A stretch of 64,000 nt of DNA. Origin: a virus. This document shows positions 12,429 to 26,913 of the stretch, one piece after another. The DNA lies in the IMG/VR virus record IMGVR_UViG_3300034375_010798; one strand, 5' to 3'. Below the pieces are notes generated by a model. That model had not been told where the DNA came from. It was given only the letters and a program-made list of their open reading frames with translations, and searched no databases. A program made the translations under genes and the position numbers. Every line of letters begins with the position of its first letter. Position 1 is the stretch's first letter.

Positions 12429-12881
12429 ATGGCTAAATATAAAAATCTTATTGATGTTGGTAACTTAAACATTGATACTAACACATTAACTATTGATTGT
12501 GTTAACAATAGAGTGGGTGTCGGTGTTGTTGATCCTTCATACAACTTTACTGTAAAATCTCCAGCAACAGGTGATGCAACAATTGCCGCTTTTGTTAATA
12601 ATAATGATGGATTAAATCATGTTTTCGGAAAAGATGCTAGTAATAACGGTTATCAACGAATCTATAACTCAGCTGGCAACGCTTGTGTTCAAATAAACTC
12701 TAGTGGGGATTCTTATATTAATGGAGGTAATTTGGGCATTGGTATATCAAACCCATCATATAATTTAGATGTTACAGGTGATATAAACTTTACAGGAACC
12801 TTAAATCAAAATGGAGTTTCTTTTAATAATGTTGATGATGTCGCATCAATATCAACGGTATTTTTTTTAATGGGAGTATAG
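12429..12881 (+). CDS. Short tail fibre / stalk protein
   Basis: 150 aa; N-terminal MAKYKNLIDVGNLNIDTNTLTIDCVNN shared with 21100 and 27220; one fibre module; hydrophobic C-terminus VFFLMGV. Confidence 0.7.
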   Translation: MAKYKNLIDVGNLNIDTNTLTIDCVNNRVGVGVVDPSYNFTVKSPATGDATIAAFVNNNDGLNHVFGKDASNNGYQRIYNSAGNACVQINSSGDSYINGGNLGIGISNPSYNLDVTGDINFTGTLNQNGVSFNNVDDVASISTVFFLMGV

Positions 12882-16629: not shown

Positions 16630-19600
16630 ATGGCAATAAATAGCTTATCAACATTAACAGAGTTTCCTTCTTTATGGTCTCAAAATGGAACTTCAATTTA
16701 TTATAATTCTGGAAATTTGGGAATAGGGTTAAGTAATCCGGGATTTAACTTAGATGTTGTTGGGGATATAAATTTTAGTGGTGATTTGTTGCAAAATGGT
16801 GTTGTTATGACCTTTGGTCAGTTTGACACAGATGGTGACGGAACTAGTATTGTTTATAATAATGGTGGTGAGGTTGTATTAGATAAAATAAGAAGTAATA
16901 CTTTAGGTGATGGTGTTTTTACTATAAGAGATTGCACAAACTCTACAGGAAAGTGGCAAAATAGAATAGGAACTGATGATTCGTATAATTTAGATTATTA
17001 TAATGGTTCATCTTGGTCAAACTGTGTTTTTGTTGACACTATTGGATTAAATGTAAACGCAACATCTGGGGAAAGATTATCTATAAGAAATGCTAGTGGC
17101 ATATCAAATAATGAAGATTTAGGTGGTGTTTCTTGGATGCAAGAAGGTAGCACTGGAACTGTTGTTGGTAATATTTTTATGTTGGGTGATTCCGATGGAG
17201 GAACAACAGGAAGAGGTAAAATGTTTTTTGGAGTTAGAGGTAATGACTCTAATCAAAGTGCAATATGTCAAATGTCATTAGATAGTTTTGGTAATGTAAA
17301 TATAGGTGGTAATTTTAATTCTTCTAGTAAACTTTATGTTGGTAAAACATCTTGGGGTATAAATGAAGCAAATCCTCTTGTAAACTTTGCTGTAACTGCC
17401 TCTGGAACGAACGGAAGTGGGTCTTATACAAGTAGAATAATGAAACTATATAGTGATGGATCATTCACTTCAGAGGTAGACAATGATGATAATATAATAG
17501 GTTTAGAAATAGAGATGGATGTTACTGGGCCTGTTAATAAAATACCGTTACGAATTACTGGTGATAACAATTATAATTATGATTTTACCTCTCAAAGCAA
17601 TGGGGTTACACCCGGAACAAGATTAGATATGTTTGTTGGTTCAAGTGCTGGTGATTTTTCTTTTAGTAATTCTGGTGGAGAGTTATTAAGAATAAAGGGA
17701 AGTGGTAATGTTGGCATAGGCACGGACTCGCCAGAGCATACTCTGCATGTAAGAGGTTCGGGCAACGGTGCAGTTATTGAAGTTGAAGATACGGCAGCTA
17801 ACGGAAACCCTGTGTTCCGATTGAAAAACGATGCACAAGAATGGCAGTGGCAGTTGAGAGGTGCAGAGTCTGATTCGCTTGTAGCGTGGGACGTTACGGG
17901 GGTTACAGGTCGGCTTTATTTAACCACAGCGGGCAATTTGGGATTGGGTGCGTCCTCGCCAGTTAATTTTTCAAACCAGACTTCTCTTACAGTAAATGGA
18001 ACATCAGTAGGACGAGTAGACGTAAAAGCTAGTGGGAGCGGTGGCGGTGCAATGTTTGGAACATCGTCAGCATTAACAATGCAAGCTAATTCTGGCGTAG
18101 CATTAAATTTAGACTCCGCATCTGGACAGCCTATTACGTTTCAAGTTGGTAGTAGTGAGAAGGCACGCATCACGAGCGCAGGCGTTATGCAAGTGGGTGG
18201 TCAAACAGGCACATTGAAGTTGGGCAACGATGGAACGTATCATGGGACGATTGAATGGGAATACGCAAACAACGAATTAGCGCACACCATCAACAATGTT
18301 GGAGTTCATACGTTTAATACAAACGGTAAAGAAGTGGCGCGATTTACTCAATCTACTTCTAATTCGGGTGGATTAATTCTTAAAAGCAATGCAGGGAATG
18401 ATCTCATCGCTATGGGGGCAGAGGGTTCTGGTGGTAATGAGGAAAATGGTTTCATTGCAGGTTATCAGAATGGGACACAAAAATTTTCAATCGGTGCAAC
18501 AACAGGTCCGACATGGTTTAATACAGGCCAAAATTTTGGCATAGGCACGGACTCGCCTTCATATCCCTTACATATAGCTAGATCGGCTGGATCGACCTGC
18601 ACACTATTAAATCTCCAATCTTGCACAAACAGTTCAGAGGGAAATAGAGTTCAACTGGCTTTTTCAAGCCAAGTCGCACTTGATAGTCAAACACGGATTA
18701 ATGCAGCTATTGATTCTATAACCCACAGTGTCGCCTATTCCCATTACGGTGATTTAGCATTTCTTACTATGAATGCAGCAGTCCTTACTGAAAAAATGAG
18801 AATAACTAGTGATGGTAAGGTTGGCCTTGGTAGTAATGCACCAGTTTACTTATTTGATATGGGAAGTGGGAACGCAAGAAATATTAGAGTTGGAACTAGA
18901 ACATTTATTGGAAGTGGATATTCCGGATCATCAACTATACTAGGTTATAATGTAATAGCGGATGAGTCAACAACAGCGACTAATAGAATGATTATTACAG
19001 AAACATCAACTGGCAATGGTTTGCCAGCCGCTATTAATATGTTTGCTGGAAATATGGAGTTTCATACAGCTCCTTCGGGAACAATAAATGATGAAATGTC
19101 ATGTCTTAGGCTTAGAATTATTAATGCTGGAACTGTGGAGATTTATAATGCAGCAGATCCAGATGGAACAGAAGATTCTTTAAGAATATATGCACAAGAT
19201 GGAGATAGTAGATTTACAGTAGGTAATAATGGAGCAAACCATAGTGCTGTAATGAAACTTTCAAACAGCACCGGAGCTATTACTCATTGTCTAAACTCTC
19301 ATGGTGGTATTGCTTGTCATAATGGATGTGTAATATCACCTACAGTTTGTGGATCAACTATAGTGAAAACAAAAACTCTTTGTGTTTGCGAAGGAACGTT
19401 GGCGGCGAGCCACCCAAGAGTTTTACTTAATATGGATGCTTGCAAAACTGATGTGGGAAGTGAAACTGCAACTTGTTTTAGAGTATCGGTTAATGCAGAT
19501 AATAATTGTTCTATAATATACACCGGTGATACTGCTAATAATCCAGCAGTTTTATGCACAACTGCGGCACACTTTAGAGCATGTGGACCTATTGGAACTC

Positions 19601-21084
19601 AATCTTGTTTTTGTGGAAAACAAATTGTTTTATGTCAAGAAGGCACAGGCAATGAAATGTTAGCATGTTTTACAAGACACAATAGTGGGAATGCTGATAA
19701 TCACTTCCATAAAATAGATGTAAATCCGGATAATAATTTAGTTACGTTAACCTCTAGTGGAACTAATGCTGGTGGTTATTGTATGTTTTGTTATGTAAAC
19801 TCTAATTGTTTTACTGCAAGTGTTATTGTTAAAGGCCCGATTTTATGTGCAACTACACAGGTTACAGCGCCTCAAGGTTTCTTTTCATCAGCTACTATAC
19901 CTCTTGCTATCCAAGATCCCGGTGTAGCTACGTATTACTGGTGTTTCCCTAACAATGATACTGTATCTTTTCATCCTAACACTACATCTACAAAAACTCT
20001 TTATTTCTGTAACGCTGGAACTGGATCTATGAACGTTTGTGTTGAAGGGTGTGTAAAAACTCCTGTTTTTTGTGCAACTAGTTGTTCTTATATTGGCGAA
20101 TCACGTATGGGTGCAGGTTTCTCTACATACACAAACGATGGTTTGTTTAGTAGTGATGCAAGACCTTCTTCTATGGGTCTTCCTAATGGATCAGAAATGA
20201 TATTTGGTTATTACTCTGCCGGGAATGGCTTTTATTGGGGTCGTGTGGCTCATAGATCGCATGTTGACAGTCTGGGTGTATATGGGTCGTCTGGTTCTAT
20301 ATATTGTCAATCATGGGGCGCACGCAGTGCCAACGTTTTTACTGTAGAAATAGCAGGAACTGATAGATTAAAGGTTGATGCTAATGGTGTGTGTATTATT
20401 GGTCATTTAAATTCTAATCCAACGGGATTGTATAATGTTGTATTAGGGCCAAATAATTTTGGTAACTCAACAACAGGTTCAACTAGTAATGTTGTTGTTG
20501 CGGATGGTGCGGCGTTGGGTGTTACAGATACAGACAATAGTGTTTTTATTGGGAAAGGATCTGGTGGCGTAAGTGGGATAAATACAGAATTGCAAACAGG
20601 AACTGGTAATGTTTTTATTGGTTACGGCGCAGGCCCAGATGCGGCTGCATCTAATTATCAAGTTGTTATTGGTGGTGATTATGCTGTTGGTAAAGGCAGC
20701 CAGACCTCTTTCTTGGCCCCTAGCTCCGGAGCTTATCAAGGAAACAATTCTGCATCTTGGTCAACTACATCTGATGAAAGATTAAAAAAGAATATTGTTG
20801 ATAATTATCAAGGGATAGAGTTAATAAGTCAAATTAGAGTAAGAAATTTTGAGTATAGATTAGAAGATGAAATAGATGATGAGTTTAAACAACAAAAGAT
20901 ACAAAGAGAAGGTATTCAAATAGGTGTTATAGCTCAAGAGTTACAAGAAATATTCCCAGACGCAGTAACAGAAAAATCAAGTGGTTTGTTGTCTGTAGAT
21001 AATGATGAGTTGTTTTGGTATATGATAAATGCAATAAAAGAACTTAACGATAGAGTAGAACAATTAGAAAACCAAACACAATAG
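16630..21084 (+). CDS. Tail fibre protein with Cys-rich segment and C-terminal peptidase S74 chaperone
   Basis: 1484 aa; GNxGIG repeats; TSDERLKKNI...GVIAQEL...INAIKELN C-terminus; 25 Cys in 266 codons at 19288-20085. Confidence 0.85.
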   Translation: MAINSLSTLTEFPSLWSQNGTSIYYNSGNLGIGLSNPGFNLDVVGDINFSGDLLQNGVVMTFGQFDTDGDGTSIVYNNGGEVVLDKIRSNTLGDGVFTIRDCTNSTGKWQNRIGTDDSYNLDYYNGSSWSNCVFVDTIGLNVNATSGERLSIRNASGISNNEDLGGVSWMQEGSTGTVVGNIFMLGDSDGGTTGRGKMFFGVRGNDSNQSAICQMSLDSFGNVNIGGNFNSSSKLYVGKTSWGINEANPLVNFAVTASGTNGSGSYTSRIMKLYSDGSFTSEVDNDDNIIGLEIEMDVTGPVNKIPLRITGDNNYNYDFTSQSNGVTPGTRLDMFVGSSAGDFSFSNSGGELLRIKGSGNVGIGTDSPEHTLHVRGSGNGAVIEVEDTAANGNPVFRLKNDAQEWQWQLRGAESDSLVAWDVTGVTGRLYLTTAGNLGLGASSPVNFSNQTSLTVNGTSVGRVDVKASGSGGGAMFGTSSALTMQANSGVALNLDSASGQPITFQVGSSEKARITSAGVMQVGGQTGTLKLGNDGTYHGTIEWEYANNELAHTINNVGVHTFNTNGKEVARFTQSTSNSGGLILKSNAGNDLIAMGAEGSGGNEENGFIAGYQNGTQKFSIGATTGPTWFNTGQNFGIGTDSPSYPLHIARSAGSTCTLLNLQSCTNSSEGNRVQLAFSSQVALDSQTRINAAIDSITHSVAYSHYGDLAFLTMNAAVLTEKMRITSDGKVGLGSNAPVYLFDMGSGNARNIRVGTRTFIGSGYSGSSTILGYNVIADESTTATNRMIITETSTGNGLPAAINMFAGNMEFHTAPSGTINDEMSCLRLRIINAGTVEIYNAADPDGTEDSLRIYAQDGDSRFTVGNNGANHSAVMKLSNSTGAITHCLNSHGGIACHNGCVISPTVCGSTIVKTKTLCVCEGTLAASHPRVLLNMDACKTDVGSETATCFRVSVNADNNCSIIYTGDTANNPAVLCTTAAHFRACGPIGTQSCFCGKQIVLCQEGTGNEMLACFTRHNSGNADNHFHKIDVNPDNNLVTLTSSGTNAGGYCMFCYVNSNCFTASVIVKGPILCATTQVTAPQGFFSSATIPLAIQDPGVATYYWCFPNNDTVSFHPNTTSTKTLYFCNAGTGSMNVCVEGCVKTPVFCATSCSYIGESRMGAGFSTYTNDGLFSSDARPSSMGLPNGSEMIFGYYSAGNGFYWGRVAHRSHVDSLGVYGSSGSIYCQSWGARSANVFTVEIAGTDRLKVDANGVCIIGHLNSNPTGLYNVVLGPNNFGNSTTGSTSNVVVADGAALGVTDTDNSVFIGKGSGGVSGINTELQTGTGNVFIGYGAGPDAAASNYQVVIGGDYAVGKGSQTSFLAPSSGAYQGNNSASWSTTSDERLKKNIVDNYQGIELISQIRVRNFEYRLEDEIDDEFKQQKIQREGIQIGVIAQELQEIFPDAVTEKSSGLLSVDNDELFWYMINAIKELNDRVEQLENQTQ
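17711..18557 (+). repeat. 22-bp exact direct repeat TTGGCATAGGCACGGACTCGCC flanking an 825-bp in-frame cassette
   Basis: Copies at 17711-17732 and 18536-18557; the enclosed DNA uses more GC-ending codons than its flanks. Confidence 0.9.
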
Positions 21085-21099
21085 AATAAGAGTAATAAT

Positions 21100-24000
21100 A
21101 TGGCCAAGTATAAAAATTTAATAGATATTGGTAATTTAAATATTGATAACAACACACTAACTATTGATTGTGTTAATAACAAAGTTGGCATAGGCACGTC
21201 CGAGCCAACAGCCACTTTAACAGTGGCTGGCCCAAACACTCAAACAAGTCTGGGCGGACCAAATGCACTCAATATTATGGATGGCAATGCTGACAACGAG
21301 TTTGTCACCTTGAATTTTCAAACGGGTGCAGGTGGCCCCTTAGCCGCTATAGGCGCAAAAGCTATTACTACTGGCGTGTATCCCAACACCGTTGGTGAGT
21401 TGCATTTTGCCGTCCAAAAAGGCGCCGCACGATTCACCGCTATGGTTATCGACGAGGATCGACAAGTCGGCATAGGCACGTCAGTTCCCGAAACAAGATT
21501 ACACATCGGTGGGACATCACAATTTATAAAAATGGATTCTGGAGCAACTACTCATTTGTATTTGGGTGGTGAAAATGATTTTTTTGCTCTATCTCACAAC
21601 AGACACCCATCGACTGGAGTGATTGATAACGCTGCTTGTGGTGTAGGTGTAATACAATACGAAAACGCAGTTGGGTGGTCATTTTCCGCAAATACAGGTG
21701 GAGCATTTACTAATCGTATGGTTATACTTAATGATGGCAATGTCGGCATAGGAACGACCTCGCCATCTTCATATTCTGCAGACGCTCGCAATTTAGTCGT
21801 TGCTTCAAGTGGTAATGGTGGGGTGACGATAAAATCTGGAACAACTTCTACGGGTAATATCTTTTTTGCGAACGCTGAAGCATCTGCCTCAAACAATGGC
21901 ATAATCCAGTATAACCACAACACTAAAGAGTTTAGATTTGACAATTACGGAACCAATCAGTTTTACAGTTTTAATATACAGAACAGTGAAAAAATGAGAA
22001 TAACTTGTGCTGGTGATGTTGGCATAGGTAGATTTACCAACTTGCAAGGTAAGTTAGATGTTGATGGTGATTTAAGAGTAACAAGGGAAATCGCAGCTAA
22101 CACCGCTTGGGAAATGATTTCTTTGGGTAGTGATAGAGGTATAGATGATTATGGTGGTTTATATAAAGATTATTGGAGAATAAATGTTGTAACTCCCGGA
22201 CCCACAACCACTGGGGAATCTGATGATCATAGATTTGGTGACTTGCGTTTTTCTGGTGTTACGGGAGCTAACACCACTTACGCAGACAGAATGACGATAA
22301 GATACAATGGCAGGGTTGGTGTAGGTGTTAAGGTTCCAGAAGCTACTTTTCATGTTGAAAGATCGTCCGGAACTACGGAGTATATAGCTAAATTTAAAAA
22401 CTCAACAACAGCTACTCCATATACTGTGTATATTCAAGAACCATCTGGTGCAGCCACTGGATATCCATTATTAAATGTGGCAAGCGGTGATGGATTAACA
22501 TCCTTTCTTCGTATAAATTCTGGCAATGGTCATGTTGGTATAGGTAAATCTCCATCACTAACATATGGAACAGATATAGTTGGTGATGTTAATATAACTG
22601 GAACTTATTATATTAACGGATCACCTTTTGCTGGAGGAGCCAGTCAATGGAGCACTACTGGATCTGATATATATTTTTGGAATCAAGTTGGAATAGGGAC
22701 TGACACAATAGACTCTCAAAATATACTACACTTAAAAGACGCAACAAATGGATATGTAGGTATAAGAATGGAGGGTAGTGGCTCTTATAATCACAATTGG
22801 TCTATATATGCTAGTGGCGATGGATCAGGTAATGAATTCTTAGGTATTTATGATGCAACTCAAAACTTATATAGATTTCAAGTTAATGAACTCGGCAATA
22901 TTGCAATAGGAGTTACTCCTAATGAAAATTGGCTTACCTCATGGCGAGTAATTGAGATAGGGGCAGGTAGTGGATTAGGTGGAACTATTTTTACCAACAA
23001 CGGAGGAGTTTCTGGTCAGATAGGTATAGGTCAAAACTGGTATTATAATCAGAGTGATGGAAATAACAAGTATGTTTATACTGCTCCAGCAAGCGATTAT
23101 ATTCAATATAATGGAACTCACCAATGGAGATCAGCTCCCTCTGGAACATCGGGTAACAATGTAACCTTAACACAAAAAATGTTTATAAATTCTGATGGAT
23201 ATGTTGCAATAGGTAATCATAGCCCATTAGCTCTTCTTCATCTATTGGGATCTTCTGAAGCTTCTAACACCGAAATCAGAATTGAACATAGTCCTTCTTC
23301 AGGCTCCGCCACTTCGAATATTCGTTTTAAGCGCGATGGCGCAGATTTTGCATATGTTGGAGGCGCTGCAGCTAGTATTAGCGGAGCCAGTTTAACGGAT
23401 TTAGGGTTATCTGTTCCGAGTGGAAAGAATATTATTTTTGGAACGAACACGACGGAAAGAATGAGAATAACTAGTTCTGGTCTTGTTGGCATTGGCACTG
23501 ATGATCCAAAAGCTTTATTAAATATTAGAAAAGGAACTGGTGGAACTGACCCTTCTTACGCAGCAGATGATTTGCTTATATTAAGAAATAACACAGCCTC
23601 TGGAGATGGGGCACGCATTAGTATAATAGCAGGTCTTATATCTGATGCCACTATAGGGTTTGGTGATGAAGATTTAAGAGATGCAGGCAGAATAGTTTAT
23701 AATAATATTAATAATTGTTTGAGATTTGGAACAGCAGGTGTTGATGATCGCATGACAATAGATAACACTGGTAAGGTTTATATTAGAACTGGTGGTTTAT
23801 ATCTTGATGGTTCAAATAATTTATATTTAGGTGACACCTCTGTGAATGGAGCTGCTGCTATTAACCTTCAATCAACAAACAGCAATACTAACTGGCAAAT
23901 AAGACAAAACAATGTTGTTGCTGGTGATTTAACTATTACACCATCAACAGCTGTTGGCGGAACTACATTTACAACGCCAACAATGTCTTTTGTTGATAAT

Positions 24001-26913
24001 AGAGTAGGTATTGGTGTTAATAATCCAAACTCTTCATATAAATTAGATATATCCGGCGATGTCAATATAACCGGAACTTATTATGCTAACGGATCACCAA
24101 TTGCTGGCGGCGGTAACCCTTGGTCTACTAGCGGCTCTGATATATATTATCTTAATAATATATCTGTTGGAACATCGGCCGCGAGTGAGGGTATAAGATT
24201 ATGTGGTAGAATAGTTGCAGGAAGATCTAGTAACAGTTCCGTGGCCACTCTTTGGCAATCAATTACATCAGATAACTCTGCATCAATAACAAATAAATCT
24301 TGTCAAGGATCACTTCTTGTTGCATCGCAGAACGACGCCGTTTCAACTGATTTGCAAGGGTTAACACAAGACCAATGGACGAGCATCGACTTTGCTGGTC
24401 TTTGTTCTGTGGCTGGATCACATGGTGGCGGATTTACAGGCGCGAGAATAGCTGTTCAATATCCTTGTATGGCTCAAGACGGATCGGCTGTTTTAAATAG
24501 TGATTTTGTTTTCTTACCAACAGATACATCTAACAACTTTTTTGAAGCTATGAGAATTGTTGGAAGAAATGGCAGCGTTGGCATTGGCCAAGATTCTCCG
24601 GAAGTTCGTCTTGATGTTAGAAAAGATGAAACTGTAAATTTTGCACCTAATAATGACCAAAGAATAAGAGCACAAATTGTTGCTAGAAACAATAATGAAA
24701 CTGCGGAGGATTTTTCTAGTATTAGTCTTGTTACAGGAGCTGGCCTTCAAGCTGAATGGTCTATCAATAATATTTATAAATCTGCTTATAATGGTGATTT
24801 ATCTTTTAAAACAAGAGCTGGTGGTGGCAACGCTGATTGGCGTGAAAGAATGAGAATAACTAATAGCGGAAATATTGGTATAGGTATTGATTCACCAACA
24901 ACAGAAAATGGAAAAGTTTTACATGTAAACGCAGATGTTGCTGATACTCAATCTAGACTACATATGACAAATATAGCAACTGGAACTGCAGACACGGATG
25001 GATTTTATATAACTGTTTTAGGTAATGAAAGTGGCTCGGCCTCTGGTCAAGTTCATTTTCAAAACCATGAAAGTAATGATATGAAATTTGTTTTTGGTAG
25101 TGGTGGTTCTGCTAAATGTAGGTTTACTATTAATTGTGATGGTCATGTGGGTATAGGAACTCCGCATGTTCCAAATTATATGTTTTCAGTATATAATGAT
25201 CGCGATCAAACAATAACAAAAACAGCAGAAATATGCACTTATTTTGGAGAACCAGCTGGTGCCGGAACTGGCGCTGTTACGGCTTATTGTAAAACTCTTG
25301 AACTATATTCAACATATGTTTGTATGCCAACGGGTGTTATTGATGATGGATACAGAGTTGGATTAGGGGTTCAAAGTTATATTAACAATAGTCAGTTTGT
25401 TGGAACTTTAAAAGATGTTTGGGGTGTTTGGGCAAGAGCTGGTTCTAATACAACTAATCCCACAGGAACTATATGTTGTGCGGTATCAGTAAAAATTGAC
25501 ACATTAAAAGGAGCTAACACAACTATAAATCATCAGTATGGAATATATCAAAGCGGTGATAATAGTGAAGCTAAAAACTATTTTGATAATCGTGTAGGTA
25601 TTGGTAACACTGAACCGTGTTGTGTTTGTTTGGCAGTATCTAAATCAAACTCAAATACAAATTTTACATCTGGTGGGCATAATGTATTACAAGTAGCAAA
25701 CCCAGACACAACAGCATGTAATATGGCATCTATTTCTTTTTGGGATGGCGATGCAACTAACCCCTTTGGAAGTGCTACTATTACAGCTAGATTTTGTAGA
25801 GACAATATGGCTACTGATCTTATGTTTTCTACAAGAGATAATACTGGAAGTTCTCAGATAAGAATGAGGTTAGATAAGTTTGGTTCACTTCTTGTGGGAA
25901 CTAATGCGGTTGGATTATGCACTGGGAGCCTTGTTACTAAATGCTGTGCAGCATTACAAATTATGAACACATCAACTAGTAATGCGACTCCGGGAATTTC
26001 TGTAACCAGATTTTGCGCAGACGCCGTTGGGGCTTATATATCTTTATCTAAATCTAGAAGTAATACAATAGGAACATTATCATATCCTTTATCTGGAGAC
26101 ACTATTGGGGTTGTGTCTTTTGACGCAGCATGTCCAACTGGTAATATAATAGCTCCAGTAGCTCAAATACAATCCCACGCCGCGGCAAATCACTCTGACG
26201 GTGCTGGCGGAGGGAGTTTGGAGTTTTATACTGATCAACGAGGTAATGGAACTGGAAATCTCTTACAAAGAATGTGTATACATGATCAAGGAGCTGTGTA
26301 TTTTAGAGATGGAGGTGTGGCTTCAACACACAAAGTTATTATTGCAGGCGATCAAGATTTATCAACAATAGCGGATACTCCATCACCTACGGGTCAACCA
26401 TTGGTTGTAGCTAGAGATACTGGAACTGATGTATCTATTGCTACTGGTGGAAATATATGTATTAATAGTGGTTATGGTGTTGTTTTTGGAGCAAATGGGG
26501 AAGTATTAGATTCATACGAAGAGGGATCATGGACACCAACAATAAATGGAACGATAACTAACCCAACTGTAAATTATACAACAGCGTGTGGTAGATATAC
26601 AAAAATTGGTGATACTGTTTTTCTTGCTGGTTATGTTTTTGTAACAGCTGGTAATTTAAGTGGTGGTGCGGGAAATATATTAATTGGGAACTTACCCTTT
26701 AATATAAAAACTCTTCACGATGGGGCATACCAAGCACTACCGTTGGGTTATGCAAGAGCTAATGGCGCTGCTATTTTAGCTGACACATCCGAAACTCACC
26801 CAAGACTACAAGCAAACCTCGCAACACAATTAGAATTATATGGAACAAATAAAACTAATTGGGGAGGTGGATTATACGAAATAAGTTTTTTTGGAACATT
26901 GAAAACGGCTTAG
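21100..26913 (+). CDS. Long tail fibre protein
   Basis: 1937 aa; MAKYKNLID anchor; more than a dozen GxVGIG / E(R/K)MRI modules; C-terminal YEEGSWTP...GRYTKIG...NLPF tip domain. Confidence 0.85.
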   Translation: MAKYKNLIDIGNLNIDNNTLTIDCVNNKVGIGTSEPTATLTVAGPNTQTSLGGPNALNIMDGNADNEFVTLNFQTGAGGPLAAIGAKAITTGVYPNTVGELHFAVQKGAARFTAMVIDEDRQVGIGTSVPETRLHIGGTSQFIKMDSGATTHLYLGGENDFFALSHNRHPSTGVIDNAACGVGVIQYENAVGWSFSANTGGAFTNRMVILNDGNVGIGTTSPSSYSADARNLVVASSGNGGVTIKSGTTSTGNIFFANAEASASNNGIIQYNHNTKEFRFDNYGTNQFYSFNIQNSEKMRITCAGDVGIGRFTNLQGKLDVDGDLRVTREIAANTAWEMISLGSDRGIDDYGGLYKDYWRINVVTPGPTTTGESDDHRFGDLRFSGVTGANTTYADRMTIRYNGRVGVGVKVPEATFHVERSSGTTEYIAKFKNSTTATPYTVYIQEPSGAATGYPLLNVASGDGLTSFLRINSGNGHVGIGKSPSLTYGTDIVGDVNITGTYYINGSPFAGGASQWSTTGSDIYFWNQVGIGTDTIDSQNILHLKDATNGYVGIRMEGSGSYNHNWSIYASGDGSGNEFLGIYDATQNLYRFQVNELGNIAIGVTPNENWLTSWRVIEIGAGSGLGGTIFTNNGGVSGQIGIGQNWYYNQSDGNNKYVYTAPASDYIQYNGTHQWRSAPSGTSGNNVTLTQKMFINSDGYVAIGNHSPLALLHLLGSSEASNTEIRIEHSPSSGSATSNIRFKRDGADFAYVGGAAASISGASLTDLGLSVPSGKNIIFGTNTTERMRITSSGLVGIGTDDPKALLNIRKGTGGTDPSYAADDLLILRNNTASGDGARISIIAGLISDATIGFGDEDLRDAGRIVYNNINNCLRFGTAGVDDRMTIDNTGKVYIRTGGLYLDGSNNLYLGDTSVNGAAAINLQSTNSNTNWQIRQNNVVAGDLTITPSTAVGGTTFTTPTMSFVDNRVGIGVNNPNSSYKLDISGDVNITGTYYANGSPIAGGGNPWSTSGSDIYYLNNISVGTSAASEGIRLCGRIVAGRSSNSSVATLWQSITSDNSASITNKSCQGSLLVASQNDAVSTDLQGLTQDQWTSIDFAGLCSVAGSHGGGFTGARIAVQYPCMAQDGSAVLNSDFVFLPTDTSNNFFEAMRIVGRNGSVGIGQDSPEVRLDVRKDETVNFAPNNDQRIRAQIVARNNNETAEDFSSISLVTGAGLQAEWSINNIYKSAYNGDLSFKTRAGGGNADWRERMRITNSGNIGIGIDSPTTENGKVLHVNADVADTQSRLHMTNIATGTADTDGFYITVLGNESGSASGQVHFQNHESNDMKFVFGSGGSAKCRFTINCDGHVGIGTPHVPNYMFSVYNDRDQTITKTAEICTYFGEPAGAGTGAVTAYCKTLELYSTYVCMPTGVIDDGYRVGLGVQSYINNSQFVGTLKDVWGVWARAGSNTTNPTGTICCAVSVKIDTLKGANTTINHQYGIYQSGDNSEAKNYFDNRVGIGNTEPCCVCLAVSKSNSNTNFTSGGHNVLQVANPDTTACNMASISFWDGDATNPFGSATITARFCRDNMATDLMFSTRDNTGSSQIRMRLDKFGSLLVGTNAVGLCTGSLVTKCCAALQIMNTSTSNATPGISVTRFCADAVGAYISLSKSRSNTIGTLSYPLSGDTIGVVSFDAACPTGNIIAPVAQIQSHAAANHSDGAGGGSLEFYTDQRGNGTGNLLQRMCIHDQGAVYFRDGGVASTHKVIIAGDQDLSTIADTPSPTGQPLVVARDTGTDVSIATGGNICINSGYGVVFGANGEVLDSYEEGSWTPTINGTITNPTVNYTTACGRYTKIGDTVFLAGYVFVTAGNLSGGAGNILIGNLPFNIKTLHDGAYQALPLGYARANGAAILADTSETHPRLQANLATQLELYGTNKTNWGGGLYEISFFGTLKTA

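What the first reader, a model, noticed from the sequence alone, without database searches (positions are those of the whole stretch)
19288..20085. Cysteine-painted fibre segment: Cys replaces ordinary surface residues
Seen: 25 Cys in 266 codons (about 9%) with no regular CxxC spacing, while the 1104-aa neighbouring fibre (13223) has none that I can find. Internal homologues show single-residue swaps: TIDCVNN vs YVDAVND and VVDSTNN; EKMRITCAG vs ITSAG/ITSSG; TTACNMASI vs TTVNNFASM; RFCRDN vs RFLRTN. The enzymes in the window use Cys normally, so codon reassignment is unlikely. Inference: exposed thiols were selected as acceptor sites (for example S-glycosylation or S-carbamoylation by the neighbouring cassette), for post-lysis inter-chain cross-linking, or for metal binding.
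Basis: partly seen in the sequence, partly recalled or inferred. Interest (0 to 1): 0.75.

Follow-up and report, generated by a model that had tools for sequence, protein, structure and literature searches.

The report
Cysteine-dense modules in phage tail fibre
A tail-fibre gene of an uncultured marine phage has a 266-residue stretch with over ten times the phage's normal cysteine content; it belongs to a rare family of cysteine-laden fibres, not found in the literature searched, whose cysteines most likely form sulfur cross-links that brace the fibre.

Summary
The count is right: 25 Cys in 266 codons (9.4%), against 0.83% across the phage's proteins and 0 in the 1104-aa neighbouring fibre. 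The quoted "single-residue swap" peptides are real, but they lie in other fibre genes, not in this segment.

The segment is the distal shaft of a 1484-aa fibre with a C-terminal S74 chaperone. It consists of three modules joined by short Cys-bearing linkers.

An exhaustive search of 1.84 billion representative proteins gave only 23 relatives, in two classes:
- **Cys-rich fibres** have 3-10% Cys, and some are from the Tara surface-ocean virus fraction. They keep 75% of the segment's Cys but only 42% of its other residues.
- **Cys-free modules** of similar identity keep almost none. They relate to the solved trimeric beta-helix fibres of Bdellovibrio.

Cys are gained and lost in pairs. Relatives carry 11-residue arrays that follow a strict "one of two positions is Cys" rule.

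No radical-SAM enzyme was found, and no sulfhydryl oxidase was detected (that search had no working control). The carbamoyltransferase cassette does not track Cys-rich fibres beyond close kin.

Best reading (about 0.45): a conserved, cooperative disulfide network that braces the fibre in oxic seawater. Both structure predictions failed, so burial and S-S distances remain untested. The scan has noted Cys-rich S74 proteins on other DNA, there next to radical-SAM genes.

The parts
16630..21084 (+). Tail-fibre gene, 1484 aa (P0002). The N-terminal two thirds are Cys-poor; then come the Cys-dense distal shaft, a tip region and the self-cleaving S74 chaperone.
   Evidence: ORF list and translation. 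PHROG tail-fibre families. Pfam PF13884.
19288..20085 (+). Cys-dense segment, residues 887-1152: 25 Cys in 266 residues.
   Evidence: GC3 is 0.14-0.23, so the segment is compositionally native to this AT-rich phage.
19315..19350 (+). Joint 1, residues 896-907. A single copy of the 11-residue Cys motif (C-x3-C, hydrophobic, x, S, P, x, x, C) that forms long arrays in relatives.
   Evidence: It obeys the array rule: the upstream position is Cys and position -2 is Ile.
19351..19617 (+). Module A, about residues 908-996 (10 Cys).
   Evidence: Conserved at 36-44% identity in P0023, P0032 and P0037, with 9-10 of 11-13 Cys kept. C920 and C985 are exchanged for two other Cys positions in that group.
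19618..19845 (+). Module B, about residues 997-1072 (5 Cys).
   Evidence: Cys-free counterparts in P0025, P0016 and P0017. C1054 and C1060 are lost together in P0010, P0033 and P0008. Modules B and C are both missing from the close relative P0006.
19846..20070 (+). Module C, residues 1073-1147. It is flanked by a 10-nt direct repeat at 19846-19855 and 20071-20080.
   Evidence: This module is missing from the 87-91% identical relatives P0004 and P0005. Repeat found. 17 Cys-free homologues are aligned.
20038..20085 (+). Joint 2, residues 1137-1152: two consecutive C-x3-C pairs around a T-P turn (a second copy of the 11-residue motif).
   Evidence: All its Cys are kept in P0009, P0010, P0007, P0008 and P0033.
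20086..20769 (+). Tip region, residues 1153-1380 (2 Cys). The receptor-binding role is presumed; it ends in a short beta-helix before the cleavage site.
   Evidence: Conserved only in the close relatives P0004-P0006. The function is inferred from its position.
20770..21084 (+). Peptidase_S74 intramolecular chaperone, residues 1381-1484, beginning with the S-D-x-R-x-K motif. It has 0 Cys here.
   Evidence: Pfam PF13884, E 2.9e-12, 47 bits against a cut-off of 22. The same domain in relatives carries 2-5 Cys.

Best explanation
The segment is a cysteine-rich version of ordinary trimeric beta-helix tail-fibre modules. It forms the distal shaft of a myovirus fibre, just before the tip and the self-cleaving S74 chaperone.

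I propose that its 25 cysteines per chain act together as a defined thiol/disulfide network. This would include local C-x3-C and C-x-C pairs at the module joints and bridges between strands and probably between chains. The network would close either cooperatively during trimer assembly or by air oxidation after lysis, and it would covalently brace the fibre during its long stay in oxic surface seawater.

Shown here:
- the enrichment in Cys;
- the modular anatomy;
- the existence of Cys-rich and Cys-free forms of the same modules;
- selective conservation of the Cys;
- pair-like turnover of Cys;
- the absence of a linked thiol-modifying enzyme in the DNA that is held.

Inferred, not shown:
- the trimeric beta-helix fold of this segment;
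- that the sulfurs are oxidised to disulfides;
- which Cys pairs with which.
For: 1. Enrichment is about 11-fold over the proteome, P = 1e-18.
2. Ten Cys-rich relatives at 29-64% identity keep 97 of 129 aligned Cys, but only 531 of 1250 other residues (Fisher 9e-13).
3. The pattern is all-or-none. Cys-free homologues of modules B and C at 27-45% identity keep 0 of 3-10 Cys. The one exception is P0013, at 56% identity, which keeps 1 of 3. Cys-rich homologues of similar identity keep 70-100%. That argues for a cooperative role rather than independent sites.
4. Turnover is pair-like. C920 and C985 are both present in the P0002 group and both replaced by two other Cys in P0023/P0032/P0037, leaving 12 Cys in the module either way. 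C1054 and C1060 are lost together in three relatives.
5. In relatives' 11-residue arrays, exactly one of two alternative positions is Cys in 98 of 109 adjacent units across 13 proteins, and both are Cys in only 2 (Fisher 3e-14). Both joints in the window obey this rule.
6. Relatives occur in the Tara station 22 surface <0.22 um fraction, which means free virions in oxic water. Established thiol chemistry says exposed thiols there will oxidise.
7. Disulfide networks in phage tails that assemble in the cytoplasm are documented: Pam3 (PMC9942802) and Milano (PMC10811340).
8. Cys-free homologues (P0011, P0017) and the window's neighbouring fibre match the solved trimeric beta-helix fibres of Bdellovibrio, 8OND/8OML/8OJN. 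In that fold neighbouring strands can belong to different chains.
Against: - No structure is available. Both AlphaFold runs were unusable (mean pLDDT 32 and 41) and no coordinates were accessible, so burial and S-S distances are untested.
- The number of Cys per mature chain is odd as often as even across 16 relatives, so not every Cys can sit in an intrachain pair.
- Fibres assemble in a reducing cytoplasm. No Erv1/ALR match turned up in the 109 kb held or in 12 related records, but that search never rang above the family's cut-off in any control genome, so it is uninformative. No glutaredoxin was found, and the one small thioredoxin sits beside a 736-aa ORF that I only guess is a ribonucleotide reductase.
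- Relatives also carry 2-5 Cys in the chaperone domain, which is cut off.
- In the 11-residue arrays Cys alternates with Ile/Leu/Val/Thr. That is also what a pure packing role would give.
- BLOSUM scoring favours Cys-Cys alignment, so the conservation figure is somewhat inflated.
Confidence: 0.45

Rival explanations
1. Metal-thiolate sites. The Cys, with some His, bind Zn, Cu(I), Fe or Cd along the trimer, in the way T4 gp37 binds Fe through H-x-H motifs and gp12 binds Zn (my own knowledge of those structures). The metals would stabilise the fibre or serve in host recognition.
For: - C-x-C, C-x2-C and C-x3-C motifs are present.
- His is enriched in the segment, 3.0% against 1.1%.
- An H-C-x3-H-x4-C-H-x2-C cluster sits at the start of the segment, and there is an H-x-H.
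- All-or-none presence and selective conservation of Cys fit metal sites as well as disulfides.
- The random parity of Cys counts is no problem for metal sites.
Against: - The His residues are not conserved in the more distant Cys-rich relatives.
- The arrays contain almost no His, Asp or Glu.
- Cys spacing is irregular, and there are many Cys for a trace-metal-poor habitat.
- Aromatic residues are common, unlike in metallothioneins.
Confidence: 0.17
2. Non-covalent packing. Cys serves only as a small, mildly hydrophobic residue that fills the narrow core or the interfaces of slender beta-helical modules. The thiols stay reduced and buried.
For: - In the 11-residue arrays two facing positions are complementary: one is Cys and the other Ile/Leu/Val/Thr.
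- Several Cys of the window replace hydrophobic residues of Cys-free homologues: C1127 for L/I/V, C1073 for I/V/A.
- Random parity of Cys counts.
Against: - The small partner is almost always Cys and hardly ever Ala, Ser or Gly, which points to sulfur chemistry rather than size.
- Other Cys replace polar, variable positions: C1137 for E/T/S/Q/D, C1141 for N/S/T, C1013 for R.
- In the segment, the residues next to Cys (+-1) are more hydrophobic than those at +-2 (difference 1.57 on the Kyte-Doolittle scale, p 0.005), which puts Cys on the polar face.
- Packing does not explain the all-or-none switch between the two forms.
Confidence: 0.12
3. Enzymatic thioether stapling. A radical-SAM/SPASM enzyme (ranthionine or sactionine type), encoded in the missing 60% of the genome, cross-links the Cys. 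This has been shown for CrpC/CrpA (PMC13692751) and was suggested by earlier notes of this scan for other Cys-rich S74 phage proteins.
For: - Earlier scan notes e1-5771078 and e1-5336185 report Cys-rich S74 proteins next to radical-SAM genes in other phages.
- The motifs are rich in Ser, Thr and Cys.
- Only about 40% of this genome is held.
Against: - No Radical_SAM or SPASM match in the 109-kb record.
- No Radical_SAM match in 12 related records with Cys-rich fibres, about 680 kb in all, although the controls rang in all 14 genomes.
- In the cases noted earlier the enzyme sits next to its substrate; here only fibre genes flank it.
Confidence: 0.07
4. One reading: exposed thiols are acceptor sites for S-glycosylation or S-carbamoylation by the neighbouring GT9-like/carbamoyltransferase/kinase cassette.
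For: - A carbamoyltransferase (PF02543 and PF16861, E 1e-45 to 1e-63) and a PfkB kinase lie 13-17 kb downstream.
- The cassette is also present in the syntenic relative that carries two Cys-rich fibres.
- The related enzyme HypF carbamoylates a Cys thiol (my own knowledge).
Against: - The cassette equally neighbours a fibre with no Cys at all.
- The GT9 match is below Pfam's cut-off, E 0.013 and 15 bits against 22.
- NodU/CmcH-type enzymes and GT9-like adhesin heptosyltransferases are known to act on hydroxyl groups (my own knowledge).
- The carbamoyltransferase is absent from 8 other records with Cys-rich fibres. All of those are fragments, so this point is weak.
- Independent acceptor sites would not be expected to switch all-or-none or in pairs.
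Confidence: 0.04

Closest known systems
Tail fibres and tailspikes with a C-terminal Peptidase_S74 intramolecular chaperone (K1F endosialidase, T5 L-shaped fibre type)
   Same: Pfam PF13884 lies at residues 1381-1447, above the cut-off, with the S-D-x-R-x-K start motif. PHROG tail-fibre families match the protein. It sits in a myovirus tail and baseplate gene block.
   Different: I know of no described member with a shaft containing 9% Cys. Relatives reach 7-10% over more than 1000 residues.
Mosaic adhesive trimer (MAT) fibres of Bdellovibrio bacteriovorus (Bd2133, Bd1334, Bd3182; PDB 8OND, 8OML, 8OJN; PMC10769870)
   Same: The same modular build, with beta-helix modules bounded by ERMRI-like and GNVGIGT-like joints and an exchangeable tip. 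Cys-free homologues of the segment's modules, and the window's neighbouring fibre, match these structures by sequence.
   Different: The solved fibres are essentially Cys-free in the shaft; the paper mentions a single disulphide, in one tip. The Cys-rich segment itself gives no direct PDB hit. In it the usual joint motif is replaced by a Cys-bearing 11-residue motif.
Disulfide networks in phage tails: cyanophage Pam3 (PMC9942802), Agrobacterium phage Milano (PMC10811340), siphovirus tail-tube rings (PMC13576161)
   Same: Virion parts assembled in the cytoplasm that end up covalently linked through Cys. Milano's authors regard 2.1% Cys in structural proteins as high.
   Different: Those cases use a few Cys per chain at subunit interfaces, for example one N-terminal fibre Cys bonded to the baseplate. 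Here there are 25 Cys within 266 residues inside the fibre shaft, at roughly five times that density.
P22 tailspike C-terminal 'cysteine annulus' (PMC3357383)
   Same: Cys in the distal part of a trimeric beta-helical adhesin take part in chain registration and assembly. This offers a way for Cys to matter even if the native state is reduced.
   Different: P22 has 8 Cys per 666-residue chain and no disulfides in the native state (my own knowledge plus the abstract seen). There is no sequence relationship.
Disulfide-filled beta-solenoids such as the Tenebrio antifreeze protein, and Cys/Pro-rich cross-linked materials such as keratin-associated proteins and spore-coat CotY/ExsY (my own knowledge)
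   Same: Short Thr/Ser/Cys-rich repeats in which regularly spaced Cys hold a thin beta structure together. The 11-residue arrays of relatives look like this.
   Different: The period is different (11 against 12 residues) and so is the Cys spacing. There is no homology. Those proteins are secreted monomers or lattices, not phage trimers. The window has only two isolated repeat copies.
CrpA/CrpC radical-SAM thioether-stapled Cys-rich proteins (PMC13692751)
   Same: A large Cys-rich protein rather than a short peptide.
   Different: No radical-SAM gene was found in this record or in 12 related records.

Membership tests
Peptidase_S74 intramolecular-chaperone tail fibres | C-terminal PF13884 domain scoring above Pfam's gathering cut-off | tested here: met
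   E 2.9e-12, 47.1 bits against a cut-off of 22, residues 1381-1447.
Peptidase_S74 intramolecular-chaperone tail fibres | Ser...Lys cleavage motif (S-D-x-R-x-K) at the start of the domain | tested here: met
   The motif is at residues 1381-1386 in the translation and is invariant in the alignment with relatives.
Peptidase_S74 intramolecular-chaperone tail fibres | Autoproteolytic release of the chaperone after trimerisation | not testable with these tools
   Needs expression of the protein and SDS-PAGE or mass spectrometry.
MAT-type trimeric beta-helix fibre modules (Bd2133 class) | Repeated modules bounded by ERMRI-like and GNVGIGT-like joints in the same protein | tested here: met
   Several such joints lie in residues 347-740 of P0002. 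PHROG 9942 and 18345 match there.
MAT-type trimeric beta-helix fibre modules (Bd2133 class) | Sequence similarity of the Cys-rich segment itself to a solved MAT fibre | tested here: inconclusive
   P0002 gives no MAT hit at E <= 0.1. The link is indirect: segment to P0011/P0017 (E 4e-11 and 1e-4), and those to 8OND (E 1.6e-11 and 4.6e-9), but through other modules of those proteins.
MAT-type trimeric beta-helix fibre modules (Bd2133 class) | Intertwined trimeric beta-helix fold | tested here: inconclusive
   AlphaFold monomer models had mean pLDDT 32.2 and 40.7. They showed only beta-strand propensity. No multimer tool was available.
Disulfide-bonded beta-solenoid antifreeze-type repeats | Regular 12-residue repeat with Cys every sixth residue | tested here: not met
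   Cys spacing in the segment is irregular. Relatives' arrays have period 11 with Cys at -4, -2 and +3.
Metallothionein-like metal-thiolate proteins | 15-30% Cys in C-x-C/C-x2-C clusters with almost no aromatic residues | tested here: not met
   9.4% Cys; Phe 4.9%, Tyr 2.3%, Trp 0.4% in the segment.
Radical-SAM-stapled Cys-rich proteins (CrpA, ranthipeptide, SCIFF type) | Adjacent or co-encoded radical-SAM/SPASM maturase | tested here: not met
   No PF04055 or PF13186 in the 109-kb record. No PF04055 in 12 related records. All these records are fragments, so absence from the whole genome is not proven.
Pam3/Milano-type fibre-to-baseplate disulfide anchors | A single Cys in the N-terminal attachment domain of the fibre | tested here: not met
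   The first 100 residues of P0002 have no Cys, and the segment lies at residues 887-1152. Three other fibres of the window do have such a Cys (see noticed in passing).
Substrate of the neighbouring sugar/carbamoyl cassette (S-linked modification) | Co-occurrence of Cys-rich fibres with the cassette beyond close relatives | tested here: inconclusive
   PF02543 is present in 2 syntenic relatives and absent from 8 other records with Cys-rich fibres, all of them fragments. The GT9 match is below cut-off.

The most novel reading that the evidence does not exclude
Hyper-cysteine tail fibres may be an undescribed class of virion fibre in large environmental phages. Their features are 3-10% Cys overall, up to 19 Cys per 100 residues, and an 11-residue T-C-x-C-S-P repeat that obeys a one-of-two Cys rule. 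The shaft would be laced layer by layer with inter-chain sulfur bridges or thiolate-bound metal. That would make it a self-curing, redox-switchable fibre with a new repeat fold, of which this window carries a three-module cassette.
Probability: 0.3. Interest if true: 0.8.

Novelty: new variant of a known kind. Interest (0 to 1): 0.6.

Why it matters
Disulfide cross-linking of phage tails has only recently been recognised (Pam3 in 2023, Milano in 2024, a siphovirus tail tube in 2026). In those cases it involves a handful of Cys per protein.

A fibre shaft with 9% Cys, in a family reaching 10% over more than 1000 residues, in free virions of the oxic surface ocean, would extend that principle to a different scale. 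It would point to fibres whose stiffness, protease and heat resistance, or even receptor engagement, depends on redox state.

The paired Cys-rich and Cys-free forms of the same module give a natural experiment for how a cooperative Cys network is installed on an existing fold. The 11-residue repeat is a candidate new fibrous fold that could be used as a cross-linkable scaffold. It also bears on virus decay and persistence in seawater.

Tried and rejected
- **Structure prediction.** AlphaFold2 on the segment with 10 sequences gave mean pLDDT 32. On the 408-aa relative P0009 with 15 sequences it gave 41. Both models were unusable and no coordinates could be read. The solvent-exposure and S-S distance test could therefore not be done, and I ran no fold search on such models.
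- **Cultured-phage database.** No match to the segment by tblastn and none to the gene by megablast.
- **IMG/VR scan with the segment.** Nothing was found.
- **Pfam on the Cys-rich relatives.** Only the S74 domain was recognised.
- **ESM Atlas.** It returned only generic viral tail-fibre neighbours.
- **Erv1/ALR sulfhydryl oxidase.** No hit, but this search never rang above the family's cut-off in any control genome (two weak rings, none), so it is uninformative.
- **Lanthionine idea.** Rejected for lack of any LanB/C/M-like or other enzyme gene beside the fibres. The extra genes in the syntenic relative are Gly_rich_2 proteins.
- **Diversity-generating retroelement.** Rejected because the Cys are conserved, not hypervariable.
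- **Codon reassignment and wrong frame.** Rejected.
- **Foreign origin of the segment.** Rejected, because its GC3 matches the native AT-rich parts of the gene.
- **Amphipathic-strand test.** It gives only modest support for Cys lying on the polar face, and the control residue classes show no alternation.

Full report
**Observation.**
window:19288-20085 (+) is residues 887-1152 of a 1484-aa ORF (16630-21084). It holds 25 Cys in 266 residues, 9.4%. The rest of the protein has 8 Cys (0.7%), and the adjacent 1104-aa fibre has none. Eighty ORFs of the 109-kb viral record average 0.83% Cys, so the probability of this density by chance is about 1e-18.

The frame is real. It runs into a Pfam Peptidase_S74 domain. 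22 of the 25 Cys codons are the AT-rich TGT, and the segment's GC3 of 0.14-0.23 matches the native parts of the gene, unlike the GC-richer block at residues 301-700.

The segment has no detectable paralogue in the window. Its Cys spacing is not CxxC, but it is not featureless either: three C-x3-C pairs, two C-x-C pairs and one C-x2-C pair.

**Setting.**
The window is the tail region of an uncultured myovirus, with sheath, gp19-like tube and T4-type baseplate genes. Its GC is 34% and about 40% of the genome is held. The sheath's best cultured match is only 33% identical, to Microcystis phage Mel-JY01. The window holds a run of very large fibre genes.

**Anatomy.**
Close relatives (87-91% identical in the segment) show that the segment is modular. 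P0004 and P0005 lack residues 1073-1147 (module C), and P0006 lacks modules B and C. In the window, module C is flanked by a 10-nt direct repeat. The modules are joined by short linkers at residues 896-907 and 1137-1152. These linkers share one motif: C-x3-C, hydrophobic, x, S/T, P, x, x, C.

After the segment come a tip region (1153-1380), conserved only in close relatives, and the S74 chaperone (1381-1484), which has no Cys here.

**Relatives.**
An exhaustive phmmer search of 1.84 billion representative proteins returned only 23 hits. Word-seeded searches added about 25 more Cys-rich fibres. They fall into two classes.

- **Cys-rich S74 fibres.** These have 3-10.5% Cys and up to 19 Cys per 100 residues. 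One syntenic IMG/VR relative (L002) has two such fibres side by side, with 33 and 47 Cys, between the same flanking genes as in the window. Members of one cluster come from the Tara station 22 surface <0.22 um fraction.
- **Ordinary Cys-free fibre modules.** These align with modules B and C at 27-45% identity, apart from P0013 at 56%. P0011 and P0017, and also the window's Cys-free neighbouring fibre, match the solved trimeric beta-helix fibres of Bdellovibrio (8OND, 8OML, 8OJN) by sequence (PMC10769870).

**What the Cys replace.**
In the Cys-free homologues the equivalent positions vary in character:

| Cys | Residues at that position in Cys-free homologues |
|---|---|
| C1105 | T/S/I |
| C1127 | L/I/V/T/N |
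| C1137 | E/T/S/Q/D/I |
| C1141 | N/S/T (the Asn of the usual joint motif) |
| C1013 | R/I/V |
| C1073 | I/V/A |

So Cys occupies both polar or variable positions and hydrophobic ones. Within the segment, residues next to Cys are more hydrophobic than those two positions away (p 0.005). This modestly favours the polar face of the strands, although the control residue classes show no alternation.

**Signs of a cooperative role.**
- Ten Cys-rich relatives keep 97 of 129 aligned Cys, against 531 of 1250 other residues (Fisher 9e-13). Cys-free homologues of similar identity keep none, apart from P0013 with 1 of 3. The substitution matrix rewards Cys-Cys alignment, so the first figure is somewhat inflated.
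- Turnover looks pairwise. C920 and C985 are both replaced by two other Cys in the P0023 group, with 12 Cys per module in both groups. C1054 and C1060 disappear together in three relatives.
- Against strict pairing, the number of Cys per mature chain is odd as often as even.

**The 11-residue arrays.**
Relatives P0036, P0038 and 13 others carry long tandem arrays of an 11-residue unit with Cys at three positions. Across 13 proteins, exactly one of two alternative positions is Cys in 98 of 109 adjacent units, and both are Cys in only 2 (Fisher 3e-14). The two positions are +3 of one unit and -2 of the next. The repeats are not independent, but the rule holds in every protein. The small partner is almost never Ala, Ser or Gly. 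Both joints in the window obey the rule.

**Linked enzymes.**

| Looked for | Where searched | Result |
|---|---|---|
| Radical-SAM and SPASM | the 109-kb record | none |
| Radical-SAM | 12 related records | none |
| Erv1/ALR sulfhydryl oxidase | the record and 12 related records | no hit, but no control genome rang above the cut-off, so uninformative |
| Glutaredoxin | the 109-kb record | none |
| Thioredoxin | the 109-kb record | one small gene, beside a 736-aa ORF that I only guess is a ribonucleotide reductase |
| GT9 assignment | the 387-aa cassette gene | below Pfam's cut-off |

All these records are fragments.

**Structure.**
The decisive exposure and S-S distance test therefore remains undone.

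**Interpretation.**
The best-supported reading (about 0.45) is a defined thiol/disulfide network that braces the distal beta-helical shaft. It would close during assembly or after release into oxic seawater. This fits several results:
- the selective, all-or-none and pair-like behaviour of the Cys;
- the habitat;
- the chemistry of thiols in oxygenated seawater;
- the precedents of Pam3 and Milano. Milano's 2.1% Cys in structural proteins is already considered high.

Rivals:
- metal-thiolate sites, 0.17;
- pure packing, 0.12;
- radical-SAM thioether stapling by an enzyme in the unseen part of the genome, 0.07 (PMC13692751, and earlier scan notes);
- S-linked modification by the neighbouring cassette, 0.04.

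**Novelty.**
Five literature searches found disulfide networks in phage tails but nothing on fibres with this Cys density or on the 11-residue repeat. Pfam has no model for it.

I class the finding as a new variant of a known kind: an S74, MAT-like tail fibre carrying a Cys-rich module cassette that is rare and is not described in the literature I searched. The wider hyper-cysteine fibre family, rather than this window alone, is the more interesting object.

Noticed in passing
window 12489, 21160 and 27280 (residue 24 of the ORFs starting at 12429, 21100 and 27220): Three fibre genes share an N-terminal anchor motif with a single conserved Cys at residue 24. Pam3 (Cys28) and Milano (Cys38) fibres use such a Cys to bond covalently to the baseplate. 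This may be the same device here.
   Followed up: no
window 19846-19855 and 20071-20080: A 10-nt direct repeat flanks module C. Relatives P0004 and P0005 lack this 75-residue module, which suggests module gain or loss by recombination between the Cys-bearing joints.
   Followed up: partly
window about 17530-18730 (residues 301-700 of the same ORF): This block is GC-richer (GC3 0.26-0.40 against 0.14-0.23 elsewhere) and Cys-free. It looks imported, unlike the Cys-dense segment.
   Followed up: partly
P0036 (residues 395-560 and 960-1170), P0038 (1400-1830), P0057-P0069: Long tandem arrays of an 11-residue Thr/Cys/Ser/Pro repeat in fibres from contigs of up to 372 kb, with a one-of-two Cys rule in 98 of 109 adjacent units. 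P0063 is 10.5% Cys over 1033 residues. No Pfam family covers the repeat.
   Followed up: partly
L002:7568-12801 and L002:18040-20069: A syntenic relative carries two adjacent hyper-Cys fibres (915 aa with 33 Cys, 827 aa with 47 Cys). It also has two Gly_rich_2 (PF21722) proteins with 2-3% Cys between the fibres and the GT9-like gene; the window lacks these.
   Followed up: partly
L028-L032, L035, L065, L073 (for example L065:20192-21901 and L031:3577-4722): Other low-GC (25-34%) viral contigs hold clusters of unrelated Cys-rich fibre-like ORFs (3-7% Cys). One is built of YadA-like NNIAIG-type repeats sprinkled with Cys. Cysteine loading of fibres is therefore not confined to one lineage.
   Followed up: partly
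window 21100-26913: The next fibre (1937 aa) has 28 Cys (1.45%, up to 6 per 100 residues), a milder enrichment in modules unrelated to this segment.
   Followed up: partly
relatives P0007, P0008, P0010, P0023, P0030-P0037 (C-terminal about 95 residues): Their S74 chaperone domains, which are cut off after folding, also carry 2-5 Cys, including one inside the cleavage motif in P0009 and P0023. The window's chaperone has none. This is unexplained. It could mean transient disulfides during folding.
   Followed up: no
G000:C1:4762-5010 (outside the window): A small thioredoxin gene (PF00085, E 1e-14) lies next to a 736-aa ORF that I guess, without testing, to be a ribonucleotide reductase.
   Followed up: no
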